DNA of 21,881 bases from a virus (IMGVR_UViG_2671180357_000006:1-21881), one strand, 5' to 3'. Shown: positions 6,955 through 19,773, counted from the first letter of the stretch. The notes: generated from the letters alone by a model not told the origin. Program-made: numbers and translations.

Positions 6955-9900
6955 TTACTTATTTATCGTCTCCGCAATATCAGTCAGAATGGCCTCCAGT
7001 CGCTCTCCTTCTTCCGGTCGGAAGTAAAGGATATTCGGGTTAAATCCGTAGAAAACGGTCGCATCCAGCTCCGGCAGATACTCTTTGCGTCCAACCAGGT
7101 CGGATGGTTTGCTCTTGTTGTTGAAGAGCGACGTCGCCCGGCTGCCACACGTCAGCACATAGGTCGGACGCACCAGATTTATCTCTTCACGCATAAAGTC
7201 GGTGAACTGGCCGATCTCGTCTTTGGTGTAGTCCTTCTCTTTGTCCTTCACCTTTTTGCACACGCCTGTGACGTAGAGATCGCCCATGCGCAGATCGCCT
7301 GCAGTAAGCAACTTCGCCTTAAAGTCGTCGTAGCCGTTCTCCATGAAGTAGCCGGTACGCCCATCATTGCCGTTCGCGTTGTCCAGAATGACCATGATTT
7401 TCGGCTTAATGCCAATGCTTGGGCGGATCAGGTCGTCTCCCAGACCCATTTCGGCCGCCATGCGAGTCATCAGTACATTCACCTCGGCAGAGCGCTTAGG
7501 GTTCATCTCGAACGGTCGAGAGGCTTTTACAGCGTCGATCACCAGATTGCCCATCAACTCTGCCTGGTCGCGCAGTCGTTCCGGATCTGTCGCTGGCAGA
7601 CTGCCAGACTCAATCGATGCGAACGCACCGACTTTTTGCAGCGACTCGCGTACCCGGCTGTTACATGCACGCTTCTCGACCGCTTCCTCAAATTGCGCCA
7701 GTGATTCGAATTTGCCGCCAACTTTCTCACGCGCTCTCATGATGGCCTGGCAACCATTCTCAGAGCAGCCTTTCACAGCAGAGAATGGTGCATACAGAAC
7801 CTGACTGCCGTCTTCCAGCGTGCGGATCTCAATTCGGTTAGATGACACGTTAACGTCTGGTGGCAATACGCGAATGCCATAGGTCAGCGCATCTTTAACC
7901 AGCCCCTGGTGCTTATCCTCGCCCAGAATGGTGAGCGCAGCAGCGAAGAACTCAGCAGGGTAATGTGTCTTTAACCACATAGACTGATAGCTGATTAAAG
8001 AATAAGCAACACTGTGTGATTTGTTGAAGGCATATCCACCGAACTTCTCAAAGGCGTCCCATATTTCTTGGGCTTTTTTCTTACTGAGACCTTCTTGTTC
8101 AGAGACGATCTCCACGTAGTCTATGCCGTCACTAATAGCCTCGCTGTAGCTTCTACGCTTACCGTCTGAGCAATCCAGTTTTGCGTGTTTGTGAACCTCT
8201 ACAGTACCTCCATTTTTGAGTGACAGTGTCACCCAGCCTGCTTGTGCTCGTTCTACAAAATCGCTGCCGATCGCTTTCATCTTATCCATGTTCTTTTTAC
8301 CGATAGCGGAACGCAGAGCGTCTGCTTCGGCCATAGAGAACCCGGCAAGTACTCGGGAACTTTGCATGATTTGTTCCTGATAGAGCAAAACACCATTAGT
8401 CTCCCGGGTGACTTCCTCAAGACGCGGATGAATTGAATGTGGAGCCATGAAGCCTTTGGCCACGGAGACATAGTCGTCCAACATGCCGGATTGGATCGGG
8501 CCAGGTCGGAAGAGTGCGGTCGTGGCGACAACGGTTTTGAAGCTCATTGGCTCAATGCCACCGCCCAGATCTTTAAGCAGCTTGCGCATGGGGCCGGACT
8601 CCAGCTGGAATACGCCCTGCGTGTACCCTGCAGCGAACCCATCCAGAACCTTACGATCGTCCAGTGGAATAGCATCGAGATTGATGTCTTCCCCGGTACT
8701 CTCTTTGATGTAGCGTTTCGCGCTATCCAGCAGATCGAGCGTTGCCAGACCGAGAACGTCCAGCTTAATCAGCCCCATCGCCTCGCAGTAACGTTTATCG
8801 AACGCAATACAGCGAGCGTTGCCACGCAGCTCGACGGGCGTGCGCTCTACCAGTGGAACGCCAGCGACGATCATCCCCGCAGCGTGACGACCAAAACCAC
8901 GCATCAGGCTTTGCAGCTTACACGCCGCTTTGAACGCTTCCGGGTTTTTCGTGGCGTATTTGTCCAGGCTGGCCAGTTGCTCGCGCAGCTCTTCCAGAGA
9001 CAGGCTATCGTCTTCCAGATTCTTGAACTCTTTGGATACCGCCATATCCGCAGCGTCGACACCGTAAATACGCGCAGTGTCTCGCAGCGCAGAAGCGGCG
9101 CCCAGATAGGTGAAGTTTGGAATACCGGCAACGTAATCTTCGCCATAGCGTTCATTCAGATACTCGATCACCTCATGACGACGTGCCTGGCTGAAGTCCA
9201 GATCCGCATCCGGTAAGTCAAGACGTTCAGGGTTGATGAAACGCTCAAACAGAAGACCGTGACGGATAGGATCGACGTTGGTTATGCCTATGCACCACGC
9301 CACCAGAGAACCGGCAGAGGAACCACGACCTGGCCCAACCGGTATTCCTGTTTCACGGCAGTGATTCATCAGATCGCGTACCATCAGGAAGTAGCCACAG
9401 AAGCCCAGACGGGTCAGTGTGTCCATTTCGTACTTCAGTCGCTCAACATACACTCGGTGCTCAGAAGCCGGTGGTGTGTAGCCAAACTCTTTAGTAGTTA
9501 GACGCTTGCGTAGCCCCGCGACAGCCAGCTTCATCAGCGTTGCAGGCTCGTCGTCTGCCATCTTGGGCAGTGCTGGTGGCAGTTCATGCCAGCGCCATGT
9601 GCAGGCTTCAATAATGGTGTCCTGCGTTGTTGAGACCATTGCAGCTGTTACCGGTACGCCCATGCGAACGGAGAAGGCTTTCAGCGCTTCAAGGAGATGG
9701 CGACGACCATTAACAGCGTTATCTCGCTGGTGGGGGATGCGCAGACGATGCGGCTGGTCGATTTTGATGTTGTTCGTAACCATGTGCGCAATGTCTTTAA
9801 TGTCAGCGTCGTCGATCGCTTCGTAATAAGCGGGATAGAACGCCACTGGCTCTATTTTCAGTGCGCTCGCCACTTTCATCGCCCGGACGTTAATCTGGTC

Positions 9901-16372: not shown

Positions 16373-16407
16373 AAATGATTCCATACCTTACAAGTATGGA
16401 ATCATTT
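16373..16407. repeat. perfect 14-bp inverted repeat / hairpin in the integrase-cassette intergenic region
   Basis: AAATGATTCCATAC-N7-GTATGGAATCATTT. No clean U-tract on either strand, so terminator, recombinase-binding site and att core are all possible. Confidence 0.4.
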
Positions 16408-16574: not shown

Positions 16575-16991
16575 TCAGCTAGAATGGAAACCTTCTGCGA
16601 CTTCAGCGAAGTAGCTGAGCAACCTAGTATCTCTTGCTGGCATACGATCGTGAGCTGGAGTGACTAGCCCCATCAGCAAAAAACGCCCGCTATCCCACAT
16701 GTGCTCGGTATAAACGAGATAGTGGTTTGAGGTTCGGTTGTAGTTCTCTTGCCTTGCGTTCCAGGTAAGCTGGAAATGCAAATTGACGTGAATATGCTGG
16801 ACATTAGCATCAACGGCGAACGGCGGGAAGTCAAATGGTGCATCTCGTCCAAGAAGATTAGATGGTGCGCCAGTTGATTTGTAAGTAATGAACTCGGATT
16901 TGAGCTGACTTTCTAGGTCAGGGTAAACGACAAAAGTGGGCTGAAAAAAATCATCCCACGTAACTTGACTGTATTCAGCCGTTAATGCCAT
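16575..16991 (-). CDS. hypothetical protein (138 aa), second gene of a two-gene cassette
   Basis: ORF with ordinary composition; start overlaps the stop of the upstream 182-aa gene by 10 bp (translational coupling). No recognisable motif. Confidence 0.5.
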   Translation of the reverse strand: MALTAEYSQVTWDDFFQPTFVVYPDLESQLKSEFITYKSTGAPSNLLGRDAPFDFPPFAVDANVQHIHVNLHFQLTWNARQENYNRTSNHYLVYTEHMWDSGRFLLMGLVTPAHDRMPARDTRLLSYFAEVAEGFHSS

Positions 16992-17530
16992 TTAGCCGCA
17001 GCCTTGTTGCCAGTCTCTAATAGATGGTTCATGGCTAAAAGGTTGACACCAGAGTCACGCACTACAGAAGTGCGTGTAATCTGATCAATCAGATTGAGAT
17101 AGTTTTTGGTCGCAATACTGACCATTTTAATAGCCTTAAAAAACGCAAACTCAACAGTGTTTTTTTCGTAAGACATGATGACGTCTTTTTCAGGTAACAT
17201 CAAAACAAAAGATTCTGCGATACCGGCTACATGAATAGTTTGATTCTTAATTTCTTCCGCTACTTTGATAGCAGCAAAGAAGTCAGTGTCAGCATAATGA
17301 GCAAGTTCAGCGCGGCTTGAACGCAGTTCTTTAGCCAATTCATTGAGAGCAGCTGTAAGATCACTGATGTCGGTTTTGTTGACTCTAGCGCCCATCTCAT
17401 AAACCCGTTCGACAATCGTAGGCTGACACGCAACCGCTTTGGGTTGCGGCTGGATACTGGCAAGAACCAGTGCCACTGCTGCCTGCAAATGCTGGATTTT
17501 AAATTTCACGATAGACTCCATAATCGTCAT
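16982..17530 (-). CDS. hypothetical protein (182 aa), first gene of a two-gene cassette
   Basis: ORF downstream of the tRNA terminator, co-oriented with the 138-aa gene. No recognisable motif. Confidence 0.5.
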   Translation of the reverse strand: MTIMESIVKFKIQHLQAAVALVLASIQPQPKAVACQPTIVERVYEMGARVNKTDISDLTAALNELAKELRSSRAELAHYADTDFFAAIKVAEEIKNQTIHVAGIAESFVLMLPEKDVIMSYEKNTVEFAFFKAIKMVSIATKNYLNLIDQITRTSVVRDSGVNLLAMNHLLETGNKAAAKWH

Positions 17531-17609
17531 TTCTCGACGAAGCGTAGCATTCTACTACTGAACTTAACTATAAGCTAAAAAAAGTTGGTTGCATATGCGA
17601 CTTGATAGC

Positions 17610-17631
17610 AAAAAGGGGCCGAAGCCCCTTT
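17610..17631 (-). terminator. rho-independent terminator downstream of the tRNA
   Basis: Minus-strand reading gives GGGGC-TTCG-GCCCC followed by TTTTT (GC stem with a UUCG tetraloop). Confidence 0.65.
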
Positions 17632-17705
17632 GGATTTTGCGCTGAAAAAAGTGTTGCTACGATGCTTAGAAGCAATGGTTAAAAAACGTCTGCCGTGTCT
17701 ATCAC

Positions 17706-17780
17706 AGCGCTGAACGGTCTGGCGACATTTGCGGAGTCTTTCGTTCGGACGGTGATGGCGAATCCAAACCGTTCAGCGCT
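17706..17780. repeat. 13-bp perfect inverted repeat flanking a 49-bp spacer, directly 3' of the tRNA
   Basis: AGCGCTGAACGGT (17706-17718) and ACCGTTCAGCGCT (17768-17780); the tRNA CCA end is at 17785-17787. Confidence 0.5.
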
Positions 17781-17784
17781 ATGT

Positions 17785-17859
17785 TGGCGATGGTGGGTGG
17801 ACTCGAACCACCGACCAGTTGATTAACAGTCAACCGCTCTACCACTGAGCTACACCATC
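17785..17859 (-). tRNA. tRNA-Asn (anticodon GTT)
   Basis: Minus-strand sequence GATGGTG-TA-GCTC-AGTGGTA-GAGC-G-GTTGA-CTGTTAA-TCAAC-TGGTC-GGTGG-TTCGAGT-CCACC-CACCATC-G-CCA folds as a canonical cloverleaf with perfect 7-bp acceptor, 5-bp anticodon and 5-bp T stems, a TTCGAGT T-loop and encoded CCA. Confidence 0.88.
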
Positions 17860-17952
17860 ATTTTCGCGGCGGTACTAGCTTATGGACAACCAGGCAGCCA
17901 GAAACTTTCCCGTAACTTGCACTTTACGTTAGTGCCAGACGAGGTATGTGGC

Positions 17953-17968
17953 TCGCTCATATGAGCGA
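17953..17968. repeat. 16-bp perfect palindrome TCGCTCATATGAGCGA
   Basis: Self-complementary 16-mer centred on CATATG, about 95 bp upstream of the tRNA 5' end and 39 bp outside the transposon IR. Confidence 0.5.
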
Positions 17969-18006
17969 AGATCTCGAATCTTTCTCGGTGGTTGATTGCC
18001 GTTAGA

Positions 18007-18044
18007 GGGGGAACCGCAGAATTCGGAAAAAATCGTACGCTAAG
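18007..18044 (+). repeat. 38-bp terminal inverted repeat of the Tn1721-like transposon (outer end at 18007)
   Basis: GGGGGAACCGCAGAATTCGGAAAAAATCGTACGCTAAG: Tn21-family IR signature including the EcoRI site known from Tn1721 ends. Flanking 5 bp outside are TTAGA. Confidence 0.85.
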
Positions 18045-18195: not shown

Positions 18196-19773
18196 TTATC
18201 CTCGTTTTTCCCAAAACTGTTTTGCCAGTTCGCTCAGAGCGCTAGTTAACTGAGCGACAGATTTCGCACTTTGCAAATTATTCTGCCCGGTCTGTACATT
18301 GGTATCAGCAGCATCGCGTATATTGATAATACTGCGGTTTATGTCTTCACTTACTGCTCCCTGCTGCTCGACCGCAGTCGCTATTTGCGCGTTCATGTCG
18401 GTAATTTCGTTAACGCGTTGGCCAATTCCATCAAGAGCTGTAGCTGCTTCCTCTGCGTGAGCTACACTCGTGTGCGCTTGCCGACTACTTTGCTCCATGA
18501 CTGTAACAGCGGATTGCGCTCGCTCTTGTAGAGCGCTGATCATGCTTTGAATATCCGTTGTCGATTGCTGTGTGCGAGCAGCAAGACTGCGAACCTCATC
18601 GGCGACAACAGCAAAACCACGCCCCTGCTCACCAGCACGCGCGGCCTCAATTGCTGCGTTGAGTGCCAACAAATTCGTTTGCTCGGCGATCCCTCGTATA
18701 ACGTCAAGAACTTTTGATATCTCGTTACTTTGACCTTCAAGCTCATGAATAACCTGAGTGGCTTGCCTAATTTCACCTTCAAGGGCAGTGATTGACTGGC
18801 TTGTGTGGGCTACCAGACGCTGGCCAGATGCCGTCTCAGTGTCTGCTCTTCCGGCCGCATCTGCAGCATGCTGTGCATTGCTCGCAACCTCTTGAATGCT
18901 TGCCACCATTTGGTTTACTGCCGTTGCTATTTGATCTGTCTCTGCCTGCTGCTCAACTGTAAGTACATTGCTTGACTCAATATCCTTTAGTAGGCCTCGG
19001 GTGTGTTCGCTAAGCCGATTTGATGCATCACCTATGCGACCTACTATGGCGCCTGTTTCAGCTTGCATCATTCGTAAAGCAAACTCTATTTGGCCAAACT
19101 CATCGGTGCGCCCAGTGTAGAGGGATTGACTTAATGGGTTATTGGAAATATTCCTGGCTCTTTCAACCAGTCTTCCAAGAGGAGAGAGAATAGCCAAAAC
19201 ACTAACAGAGCTTAAGCTTCCTGACATTAAAGTGGCTAACAATAAGCTGCTTATTGATGTATCAGTAAGCATGCCGGCAGCCATTGCGCTTGATATAATA
19301 CTACCCCATATGAGCAAGAGTATTTTCACGGAAAAGCTAGCAGCCAATTTCGGCCTCGCGGCCTTCCCGCTTCTCAATTGAGCATATAATTTTTCCGCAG
19401 CCAAAACCTGCTCAGGTTCAGGCTTGGTCCTTACAGACTGGTATTCAACAATCGAACCATTCTTAGCTATTGGCGTTACATAAGCACTTACCCAATAGTG
19501 GTCGCCATTTTTACAGCGATTTTTTACTAGCCCCATCCATGAGCGGCCAGATTTTAATGTACTCCACATATGCTCAAATGCAGCAGGCGGCATATCTGGG
19601 TGTCTTACGATGTTGTGAGGCTGGCCTAATAGTTCTTCCTCAGTGAAACCACTGATTTTAATGAAGTCAGGATTAACGTATGTGATATGGCTTTGAGGGG
19701 AGGTAGTCGAAAGAATATTGGCATCTTTTGGGAGTTCTAAGTTTCGACCCGTCACTGGTAAATTCTGGCGCAT
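18196..19773 (-). CDS. mcp: methyl-accepting chemotaxis protein with N-terminal PAS domain (Aer-like); transposon passenger gene (525 aa)
   Basis: N-terminus [75 protein letters not shown] parallels the E. coli Aer PAS region; the MCP signalling domain has [32 protein letters not shown]; hydrophobic segment in the middle; GAGG RBS upstream. Confidence 0.9.

What the first reader, a model, noticed from the sequence alone, without database searches (positions are those of the whole stretch)
17706..17780. 13-bp perfect inverted repeat enclosing 49 bp directly 3' of the tRNA
Integrases of the P4 type usually target tRNA 3' ends, yet here the integrase is ~1.5 kb away with two genes in between. 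This inverted-repeat structure sits 4 bp after the tRNA CCA and before the real terminator at 17610-17631. It could be a recombination site or footprint (att remnant), a miniature inverted-repeat element, or a processing or structural element in the tRNA 3' trailer.
Basis: seen in the sequence. Interest (0 to 1): 0.4.

Follow-up and report, generated by a model that had tools for sequence, protein, structure and literature searches.

The report
Conserved RNA hairpin after phage tRNA
The inverted repeat is real, but it is not an integration scar: it most likely encodes a conserved, unannotated RNA hairpin that opens a ~175-nt structured tail of a tRNA transcription unit carried by SSU5-like phage-plasmids of enterobacteria.

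Summary
A perfect 13-bp inverted repeat (17706-17718 / 17768-17780) extends to 20 bp (17703-17722 / 17764-17783) and starts 1 nt after the CCA of tRNA-Asn.

The window is an SSU5-like phage-plasmid, 100% identical here to E. coli pBL12EC-1. It is not a chromosomal tRNA locus carrying an island.

The hairpin is the first part of a ~175-nt module: a 20-bp stem, a top carrying the near-invariant motif AAGACUCCGC, a ~70-nt linker and a near-invariant intrinsic terminator. I found the module in 87 related loci.

Its position does not depend on tRNA-Asn. It follows tRNA-Asn, tRNA-Ser, a spacer or a 203-aa ORF, depending on the lineage. Four stem pairs show compensatory changes, and 97% of cells are paired.

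It occurs once per replicon and never on E. coli chromosomes. No flipped copy and no Rfam match were found. The 367-aa "integrase" is a syntenic core gene of the family, and the tRNA 3' end is not duplicated in the window.

Best reading: an RNA-level structural or processing element, possibly part of a stable small RNA. It is not an att remnant or a MITE. Its function was not tested. Interest is moderate.

The parts
17785..17859 (-). tRNA-Asn (anticodon GUU) with encoded CCA. It is the last, and here the only, tRNA of the unit.
   Evidence: ARAGORN. Rfam tRNA, 76.2 bits.
17860..18006 (-). Residual 147 nt of the native 5' leader. In relatives the leader is about 740 nt, ORF-free and highly structured. 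Here it is cut by a transposon end at 18007.
   Evidence: Homology to pBL12EC-1 ends at 18006. Leader anatomy in relatives.
17764..17783 (-). 5' arm of the hairpin in RNA sense (CAUAGCGCUGAACGGUUUGG).
17723..17763 (-). Top of the hairpin, 41 nt. Predicted to hold a variable inner mini-hairpin plus a small GAC/GUC stem that presents a UCCGC-containing loop.
   Evidence: MFE folds of seven lineage variants. Alignment.
17731..17740 (-). Motif AAGACUCCGC (GCGGAGTCTT on the + strand). It is near-invariant and always in the same orientation.
   Evidence: It is altered only in L084, L086 and L088.
17703..17722 (-). 3' arm of the hairpin (CCAGACCGUUCAGCGCUGUG). It holds the perfect 13-mer at 17706-17718.
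17632..17702 (-). Conserved linker (GAUAGAC..ACGGCAGACGUU..AACC.., internal U-run, AGCGCAAAAUCC).
   Evidence: Covered by covariance model R1.
17610..17631 (-). Intrinsic terminator AAAGGGGC-UUCG-GCCCCUUUUU that ends the unit. Homology between lineages stops right after it.
   Evidence: helix 2, 99% paired.
17609..17785 (-). The whole module (hairpin + linker + terminator) as one covariance-model match.
   Evidence: R1 match, 175.4 bits, E = 6.5e-38.

Best explanation
The inverted repeat encodes an RNA hairpin. It is transcribed on the - strand together with tRNA-Asn. The hairpin is the first domain of a conserved ~175-nt 3' trailer, running from 1 nt after the CCA to the intrinsic terminator at 17610-17631. 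The trailer belongs to a noncoding transcription unit of SSU5-like phage-plasmids.

Shown here:
- The module is a discrete, length-conserved, single-copy unit.
- Its 20-bp stem is kept by compensatory substitutions.
- Its top carries a near-invariant AAGACUCCGC motif in a fixed orientation.
- It always ends at the same terminator.
- It sits 3' of whatever cargo the lineage carries: tRNA-Asn, tRNA-Ser, a spacer hairpin or a 203-aa ORF.

Inferred:
- A 20-bp helix abutting the CCA leaves no single-stranded landing site. Release of the tRNA 3' end would then need an endonucleolytic cut in or next to the helix, for which RNase III is the obvious candidate, followed by exonucleolytic trimming.
- The same cut would free a trailer RNA, or a ~60-nt hairpin top, protected by the stem at one end and the terminator at the other.
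- The exposed UCCGC loop and the U-run/terminator pair look like recognition surfaces for a protein or an RNA partner. No partner was identified.
For: Replicon identity: 100% match to E. coli plasmid pBL12EC-1 and many 100-115 kb plasmids, and a partial match to phage SSU5. In PLSDB, 596 plasmids cover at least 80% of the stretch from terminator to tRNA.

Conservation: 87 loci carry the hairpin and 47 distinct full modules were recovered, all about 170-182 nt except one terminator-less copy (L071). Homology between lineages ends right after the terminator.

Position independent of tRNA-Asn:
- after tRNA-Ser in phage Cyrano and Klebsiella phage 1825-KPC53;
- after a 203-aa ORF with no tRNA in the locus (L081 and similar);
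- after tRNA-Asn, tRNA-Ser and that ORF in L088.

Pairing: on 24 diverse sequences the stem is 97.3% paired. Four pairs have changes on both sides (10/84 UA/CG, 11/83 UA/AU, 14/80 GC/AU, 18/76 UA/GC), giving 24 compensated cells. No shuffle of 500 reached the observed covariation score or percentage paired. Slid controls give at most 56% paired.

Strand: an internal U.G pair (19/75) is kept in 23 of 24 sequences and would be A.C on the other strand. Alifold energy is -45.3 on the tRNA strand against -39.4 on the antisense.

All variants fold as a long stem with a structured top, z = -3.4 to -9.8. The module is co-oriented with the tRNA and terminator.

Sister hairpins with covariation fill the ~740-nt ORF-free leader of relatives: z = -8.1, 122 consensus pairs, 17 with compensatory changes.
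Against: There are no expression data, so transcription, processing and stability are all inferred.

The covariation comes from about six lineages, so there are few independent events. The shuffle control does not correct for relatedness.

Some intermediates fit the wrong strand: C.A at pair 10/84 in 4 sequences and at terminator pair 190/195 in 2. For pairs shared by both strand predictions, G.U and A.C counts are about equal. The strand call rests mainly on one conserved wobble and on context.

Eleven of 20 stem pairs never vary. Three different hairpins share the termini CACA(A/G)CG...CG(Y)UGUG. This sequence constraint goes beyond pairing and could also reflect a DNA-binding protein.

Reference phage SSU5 lacks the distal arm, linker and terminator and is a viable phage, so the module is dispensable at least for lytic growth.

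No complementary target of 12 nt or more exists in the 106-kb plasmid. The 11-mer count (9) equals my own back-of-envelope chance estimate (~8.6).
Confidence: 0.6

Rival explanations
1. A DNA-level element. The two arms would be recognised in double-stranded DNA by a symmetric protein, or the repeat would extrude or fold in single-stranded DNA during replication. Examples are an operator-like or origin-associated site, a primosome or single-strand initiation signal, or a recombination hotspot for module exchange.
For: Arm sequence is more conserved than pairing alone requires: 11 of 20 pairs are invariant. Hairpins H2, H4 and the second Klebsiella hairpin share termini. In one contig (L050) the interior of sister hairpin H2 is inverted, so such repeats can recombine as DNA. 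A variable cargo slot and a tyrosine recombinase lie just downstream. G.T wobbles are also tolerated in single-stranded DNA hairpins.
Against: Arms 41-49 bp apart that vary by compensatory changes are unusual for a protein site. The element is bracketed by a tRNA and a near-invariant terminator on the same strand. The interior motif has a fixed orientation in all 87 loci. These are double-stranded DNA siphovirus-like phage-plasmids with a RepA replicon about 20 kb away. A different, much better candidate protein site exists elsewhere in the window (16373-16407).
Confidence: 0.17
2. The module is mainly a trans-acting small RNA, derived from a 3' external transcribed spacer and possibly Hfq- or ProQ-dependent. 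Its UCCGC loop would base-pair with a host or phage RNA. The hairpin would be its 5' stability domain rather than a tRNA-processing device. This is a sub-variant of the best explanation.
For: The module is a discrete unit of conserved length. It has a near-invariant loop motif, an internal U-run and a terminator with a U-tail. It is kept even where no tRNA is present, as in L081-type loci, which argues against a role limited to tRNA maturation.
Against: No target was found. Complementarity to the whole plasmid is at my estimated chance level. There is no Rfam relative. In Cyrano-type variants the motif is not presented in a loop. SSU5 lacks most of the module.
Confidence: 0.25
3. An att remnant or recombination footprint left by a tRNA-targeting (P4-type) integrase, or an invertible switch run by the nearby tyrosine recombinase.
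For: A tyrosine recombinase gene lies 1.4 kb away. A sister repeat (H2) is found flipped in one contig.
Against: There is no duplicate of the tRNA 3' end in the window. The recombinase is a core, syntenic gene of a plasmid-borne phage. The hairpin follows different upstream partners in different lineages. The spacer of 41-49 bp compares with 6-8 bp in known core sites (from my own knowledge). No flipped H4 was seen among 87 loci or in PLSDB, where the best full-length match to a synthetic flipped query is 88%.
Confidence: 0.03
4. A miniature inverted-repeat transposable element inserted beside the tRNA.
For: It has terminal inverted repeats of 13-20 bp beginning CA...TG and a small size of 81 bp.
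Against: There is one copy per genome in 36 E. coli genomes, all on plasmids and none on chromosomes. The arms have no other copy in the window. I saw no target-site duplication in the flanks. The element sits at the same relative place in all lineages.
Confidence: 0.01

Closest known systems
3' external transcribed spacer RNAs of bacterial tRNA operons, e.g. 3'ETS-leuZ of E. coli glyW-cysT-leuZ (recalled from my own knowledge, not checked in a paper here)
   Same: It lies between the last tRNA and the operon's intrinsic terminator. It would be released by tRNA processing, and it is a conserved discrete unit ending in a terminator hairpin with a U-tail.
   Different: It is about three times longer. 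It starts with a 20-bp helix abutting the CCA. It is carried by a phage-plasmid. It is also found after a protein-coding gene with no tRNA present. There is no evidence of a sponge or regulatory role, and no sequence similarity.
Stable small RNAs encoded in the phage T4 tRNA gene cluster (species 1 and 2, also called RNA C and D) (own knowledge)
   Same: They are phage-borne structured RNAs of unknown function, co-transcribed with and processed from a tRNA precursor.
   Different: No sequence or structural relationship was detected, and there was no Rfam hit. The phage family is different (a temperate plasmid-prophage).
RNase III processing hairpins of phage early transcripts and rRNA operons, e.g. 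T7 R-sites and lambda sib (own knowledge)
   Same: There is about two turns of double-stranded RNA placed at the boundary between functional RNAs. Several such hairpins occur in one noncoding transcript (H1, H2 and H4 in relatives).
   Different: Cleavage was not tested. The top of the hairpin is large (41-49 nt) and carries a conserved sequence motif, which classical RNase III sites lack.
ROOL and GOLLD large ornate ncRNAs, which are phage- or prophage-associated and often next to tRNA genes (own knowledge)
   Same: It is part of a ~1-kb ORF-free, strongly structured, tRNA-associated region of a phage genome.
   Different: There is no match to those Rfam models. The hosts are enterobacteria. 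The tRNA lies inside the unit. The architecture is a string of hairpins rather than a demonstrated compact fold.
P1/P7 c4 and P4 CI immunity antisense RNAs (own knowledge)
   Same: They are small structured RNAs of plasmid-prophages, cut from a longer transcript by tRNA-processing enzymes, with recognition sequences in loops.
   Different: The Rfam search returned no hit to any such model. No complementary target was found on the plasmid. The genomic context differs, being the replication and early gene cluster.

Membership tests
att site or remnant of a tRNA-targeting (P4-type) integrase island | A direct repeat of the tRNA 3' end marks the far end of the element. | tested here: not met
   The 20-nt tRNA 3' end occurs once in the window, allowing 3 mismatches.
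att site or remnant of a tRNA-targeting (P4-type) integrase island | The integrase belongs to an accessory island inserted into a host tRNA gene. | tested here: not met
   The replicon is a phage-plasmid. The recombinase is syntenic in more than 40 related loci at 62-100% identity. It scores 31 bits against a 434-bit cut-off for PRK09692.
Tyrosine-recombinase core site (lox/FRT/dif/attP-core type) | Inverted binding arms flank a 6-8 bp overlap region. | tested here: not met
   The arms are separated by 41 bp (20-bp arms) or 49 bp (13-bp arms). A site with that architecture exists elsewhere, at 16373-16407.
Invertible DNA switch (inverton) | Both orientations of the segment between the repeats are found among copies. 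| tested here: not met
   The motif orientation is identical in 87 loci. A synthetic flipped query finds no full-length match better than 88% in PLSDB. Within-population heterogeneity could not be tested.
MITE or REP-like repeat | Multiple dispersed copies, with target-site duplication. | tested here: not met
   One place per genome, 0 on chromosomes, 36 of 5,426 E. coli genomes. No other copy in the window. I saw no duplication in the flanks.
Integron attC site | R''(RYYYAAC)...R'(GTTRRRY) order, extrahelical bases and an IntI-type integrase. | tested here: not met
   By inspection of the arms, the motif order is reversed in Cyrano-type arms and one base off in the window's arms. The stem has no bulges. 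The recombinase matches only the generic Phage_integrase domain.
Intrinsic (Rho-independent) terminator | A short GC-rich hairpin with a small loop, directly followed by a U-run. | tested here: not met
   The hairpin has a 41-nt top and no adjacent U-run. The unit's terminator is the separate element at 17610-17631.
Any curated Rfam family | A covariance-model match at or near the gathering score. | tested here: not met
   Only tRNA passes. The remaining hits are generic hairpin matches at 15-20 bits against cut-offs of 66-245.
Structured 3' trailer (3' ETS) element of a tRNA operon | It lies on the tRNA strand between the last tRNA and the operon terminator. | tested here: met
Structured 3' trailer (3' ETS) element of a tRNA operon | The structure is conserved through compensatory change. 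| tested here: met
   Four pairs with double changes, 97.3% paired, no shuffle of 500 reaching the observed covariation score. There are few independent lineages.
Structured 3' trailer (3' ETS) element of a tRNA operon | It is transcribed and processed out of the tRNA precursor. | not testable with these tools
   No expression data are available here.
RNase III substrate | About 20 bp or more of uninterrupted double-stranded RNA. | tested here: met
   A 20-bp helix including two G.U pairs, and 19-22 bp in other lineages.
RNase III substrate | Cleavage by RNase III in vivo or in vitro. | not testable with these tools
   This needs an experiment.

The most novel reading that the evidence does not exclude
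The hairpin would be the 3' bracket of a previously undescribed ~1-kb noncoding RNA cassette of SSU5-like phage-plasmids. The cassette would consist of a promoter, a ~740-nt leader with conserved covarying hairpins (H1, H2, H3), exchangeable cargo (one to three tRNAs or a 203-aa ORF), the H4 hairpin with its UCCGC loop, and a terminator. The family of hairpins sharing CACARCG...CGYUGUG bases would then be a dedicated RNA-processing or recognition system, or a large multi-domain ncRNA. It could act in lysis-lysogeny control or in counter-defence.
Probability: 0.25. Interest if true: 0.65.

Novelty: new member of a known kind. Interest (0 to 1): 0.38.

Why it matters
SSU5-like phage-plasmids (pHCM2-, pMT1- and pKpn-type) are common in clinical E. 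coli, Klebsiella, Salmonella and Enterobacter and can carry resistance genes. Their regulation is largely unknown.

A conserved, unannotated structured RNA attached to their tRNA genes is a concrete, testable candidate for tRNA maturation control or for a phage-plasmid small RNA.

For annotation, the result prevents a wrong call. A tRNA, a nearby integrase and an inverted repeat do not make a genomic-island junction here.

Tried and rejected
- **Rfam:** scans of the window region, of two other lineages and of the full leader found nothing beyond tRNA.
- **Antisense target:** I searched all k-mers of the module against both strands of the complete 106-kb plasmid. There was no match of 12 nt or more. 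The nine 11-mer matches equal my own chance estimate, and none involves the AAGACUCCGC motif. The window alone gave the same result.
- **Inversion switch:** synthetic flipped versions of H4 and H2 found no true flipped record in PLSDB. Only one IMG/VR contig (L050) has H2 flipped.
- **MITE:** rejected on copy number.
- **att duplication:** rejected.
- **Attenuator idea:** the scan found a small terminator-like hairpin overlapping the 3' arm (GCUGUG-AUAGA-CACGGC plus a U-run). The U-run exists only in the window's sublineage; other lineages have GUUCUU. I dropped it as a general mechanism.
- **Coding potential:** I saw no ORF or start codon in the loop or on the + strand that recurs across the lineages.
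- **More distant relatives:** loci around recombinase homologues at 47-59% identity (Chimaeribacter, Pantoea, Rahnella, Hafnia) have no module by covariance model or BLAST. Y. pestis pMT1 keeps only the H1-H2 part of the leader.
- **Published Y. pestis sRNAs:** sR082 and sR083 on pMT1 (PMC3770706) lie elsewhere.
- **Literature:** text searches for SSU5, phage-plasmid, tRNA and ncRNA terms, and for the motif strings, found no description.
- **Strand test:** comparing G.U with A.C counts on pairs shared by both strand predictions was inconclusive.

Full report
**1. Observation**

The window holds one tRNA gene, tRNA-Asn(GUU), at 17785-17859 on the - strand, with an encoded CCA. Directly 3' of it lies the reported inverted repeat. 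The perfect 13-bp arms are 17706-17718 and 17768-17780, 49 bp apart. The repeat extends to 20-bp arms (17703-17722 / 17764-17783) with two mismatches. Both mismatches are C.A on the + strand and therefore G.U on the tRNA strand. As RNA the - strand forms an uninterrupted 20-bp helix that starts 1 nt after the CCA, at -39.1 kcal/mol and z about -5.4 to -6.1. Markov-simulated windows contain 0.04 such perfect repeats on average.

**2. What the window is**

The stretch 17400-18006 is 100% identical to E. coli plasmid pBL12EC-1 (106 kb). It is 99% identical to many plasmids of 100-115 kb, and part of it matches Salmonella phage SSU5 and Klebsiella phage-plasmids. pBL12EC-1 encodes terminase, portal, capsid and tail genes together with RepA, ParB-like proteins, DnaE and a DnaB-like helicase. 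The window is therefore a piece of an SSU5-like phage-plasmid, and the tRNA is phage-borne. At 18007 homology stops. A sequence that I recall as a Tn1721-type 38-bp terminal repeat begins there, followed by a PAS/HAMP/MCP ORF at 18196-19773.

**3. The hairpin is part of a conserved module**

Two exact-pattern scans of IMG/VR were anchored outside the arms. Together with annotated phage records they gave 87 loci with the hairpin and 47 distinct full modules. All have the same plan and nearly the same length, about 170-182 nt. The one exception is L071, which lacks the terminator. The plan is:
- a 19-22 bp stem;
- a 38-49 nt top whose only conserved sequence is AAGACUCCGC, usually followed by UAAC;
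- a linker of about 70 nt with conserved blocks and an internal U-run;
- a near-invariant terminator.

Sequence similarity between lineages ends within a few bases after the terminator's T-run.

The upstream neighbour differs by lineage:

| Upstream neighbour of the module | Example |
|---|---|
| tRNA-Asn | the window, Kluyvera, Buttiauxella |
| tRNA-Ser at the end of an Asn-Thr-Ser array | phage Cyrano |
| tRNA-Ser after tRNA-Asn and a 146-nt spacer | Klebsiella phage 1825-KPC53 |
| that spacer, without tRNA-Ser | L007, L063 |
| a 203-aa coiled-coil ORF, with no tRNA in the locus | L081 and similar |
| tRNA-Asn, tRNA-Ser and then that ORF | L088 |

Where a tRNA precedes the module, the helix begins 1-2 nt after the CCA. 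Phage SSU5 itself has a deletion. It keeps only the tRNA-proximal arm and half of the top, joined to the CobT-like gene.

**4. Evidence for selected pairing**

On an alignment of 24 diverse modules, RNAalifold recovers the stem and the terminator. Counting on the stated structure gave these results:
- the stem is 97.3% paired;
- 11 pairs never vary;
- four pairs show changes on both sides (UA/CG, UA/AU, GC/AU, UA/GC), giving 24 compensated cells;
- no shuffle of 500 reaches the observed covariation score or percentage paired;
- structures slid by 1-3 columns drop to 21-56% paired with 0-1 compensated cells.

An internal U.G pair is kept in 23 of 24 sequences. Consensus energy is better on the tRNA strand, -45.3 against -39.4.

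Three caveats apply. The changes come from about six lineages. A few intermediates are C.A on the tRNA strand. A strand test restricted to pairs predicted on both strands is a draw.

Folds of seven variants agree on a long stem capped by a variable mini-hairpin. In most lineages they also show a 3-4 bp stem (A/U)GAC...GUC(U/A) presenting a UCCGC-containing loop. There is one apparent compensation, AGAC/GUCU against UGAC/GUCA. This is a prediction only.

**5. Context: a string of related hairpins**

In relatives with an intact locus, the 740 nt between the upstream gene and tRNA-Asn have no ORF longer than 71 aa. They fold with z = -8.1. This leader contains further conserved long hairpins:
- H1, at L090 23512-23596;
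- H2, at L090 23667-23782, with arms CACAACGTTGAG.. closely resembling the H4 arms CACAGCGTTGAG..;
- a weaker H3.

Klebsiella lineages have yet another 18-19 bp hairpin directly after their tRNA-Asn. A 12-sequence alignment of the leader gives 122 consensus pairs, 17 of them with compensatory changes. In the window this leader is truncated to 147 nt by the transposon. No Rfam family matches any part except the tRNAs.

**6.

- **att remnant.** The tRNA 3' end is not repeated in the window. The 367-aa recombinase, its divergent 132-aa neighbour and the CobT-like gene are syntenic core genes in more than 40 loci. A variable cargo slot of 0.3-3.5 kb separates the module's terminator from them; here it holds a YafO toxin and a 182-aa ORF. 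The recombinase is only a weak generic Phage_integrase match.
- **MITE.** There is one copy per genome, only on plasmids, in 36 of 5,426 E. coli genomes, and no other copy of the arms in the window.
- **Inversion switch.** The interior motif has one orientation in all 87 loci. A synthetic flipped query finds no true match in PLSDB. Sister hairpin H2 is flipped in a single contig, which shows that DNA-level events at such repeats occur but are rare.
- **Trailer structure.** This reading is supported by sections 3 to 5.

**7. How it most likely works**

Shown: the module is a discrete, single-copy, structure-conserved element on the tRNA strand, ending at a terminator and independent of which cargo precedes it.

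Inferred: it acts as RNA. A 20-bp helix abutting the CCA leaves no single-stranded RNA for the usual 3' processing entry. An endonucleolytic cut in or at the helix is therefore expected, with RNase III as the natural candidate for two turns of double-stranded RNA. Trimming to the CCA would follow. The cut would also release either a hairpin top of about 60 nt or a trailer RNA of about 175 nt. The conserved loop, U-run and terminator suggest that this RNA is recognised by a protein or RNA partner.

I could not find a partner. Complementarity to the plasmid is at my estimated chance level. Two facts argue for a role broader than tRNA maturation: the module persists where no tRNA is present, and similar hairpins bracket the cargo on the 5' side. 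That role could be a processing or stability cassette, or a multi-domain ncRNA. I put 0.6 on the RNA structural or processing reading. That figure includes the small-RNA variant, which I rate at 0.25. I put about 0.17 on a DNA-level role and a few percent on recombination or transposon readings.

**8. Comparison with known systems and novelty**

The element works most like a 3' external transcribed spacer RNA or a phage RNase III processing hairpin. It recalls the stable RNAs of the T4 tRNA cluster and, for the whole locus, the tRNA-associated ROOL and GOLLD RNAs. These comparisons rest on my own knowledge and were not tested beyond the negative Rfam scans. It is not a member of any curated family. 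Text searches of the held literature found no description.

I file it as a new member of a known kind: a conserved structured RNA element of a phage tRNA unit. Interest is moderate at 0.38. It is not surprising in principle, but it is widespread in clinically common phage-plasmids, unannotated and directly testable.

Noticed in passing
window 18007-18044 and 18196-19773: Homology to related phage-plasmids stops at 18006. A 38-bp Tn3-family end begins there (GGGGGAACCGCAGAATTCGGAAAAAATCGTACGCTAAG; Tn1721-like, from memory), followed by a PAS/HAMP/MCP ORF on the - strand. The insertion removes about 600 nt of the native leader, including a promoter-like site. tRNA-Asn and the hairpin module may now depend on read-through from the transposon.
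   Followed up: partly
window 16373-16407: A perfect 14-bp inverted repeat AAATGATTCCATAC / GTATGGAATCATTT with a 7-bp spacer lies about 100 bp upstream of the recombinase gene. The arms are invariant in 47 loci, including Yersinia and Chimaeribacter, while the spacer varies by lineage. Single copies of ATGATTCCATAC occur elsewhere (window 10197; L090 22831, 23851, 31678). One overlaps a promoter-like TTGCCC-N16-TATGAT 178 nt upstream of tRNA-Asn. It is a candidate repressor operator, promoter element or lox-like core site.
   Followed up: partly
L090 23286-24028 (pBL12EC-1) and the equivalent in L096, L002, L004: The leader upstream of tRNA-Asn is about 740 nt and ORF-free. It folds at z = -8.1 and holds conserved hairpins H1, H2 and H3. 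The consensus has 122 pairs, 17 of them with compensatory changes. There is no Rfam match. It may be an undescribed large structured RNA locus.
   Followed up: partly
L050 about 7837-7950 (IMGVR_UViG_2823367306_000002): The roughly 80-bp interior of leader hairpin H2 is inverted relative to all other loci, while the flanks keep their orientation. No flipped copy was found in PLSDB with a synthetic query.
   Followed up: partly
L004 1821-1912 (Klebsiella phage vB_Kpn_1825-KPC53): A second long hairpin (arms CACAACGGTAAGGG.. / ..CCCTTACCGTTGTG, 19-bp stem, -57 kcal/mol for the 153-nt spacer) sits directly 3' of tRNA-Asn in lineages that have a spacer before tRNA-Ser. Its architecture and terminal bases match the hairpin studied here.
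   Followed up: partly
window 16575-17530: The slot between the module's terminator and the recombinase gene holds a YafO-family toxin (16575-16991) and an overlapping 182-aa ORF with no family match (16982-17530), probably its antitoxin partner. Other lineages carry different genes in this slot.
   Followed up: partly
L003 1470-1545 (phage SSU5, JQ965645): The reference phage SSU5 lacks the distal arm, linker, terminator, cargo slot and recombinase. The deletion joins the middle of the hairpin top to the CobT-like gene region.
   Followed up: yes
L081 4828-5439, L088: In some lineages a 203-aa coiled-coil ORF with its own non-terminating GC hairpin lies between the leader or tRNAs and the module. 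In L081-type loci it replaces the tRNAs altogether.
   Followed up: partly
window 17785-17859: The phage-plasmid tRNA-Asn is about 90% identical to the tRNA-Asn of P1-like phages and about 92% identical to that of N4-like phages. None of those phages shares the trailer.
   Followed up: no
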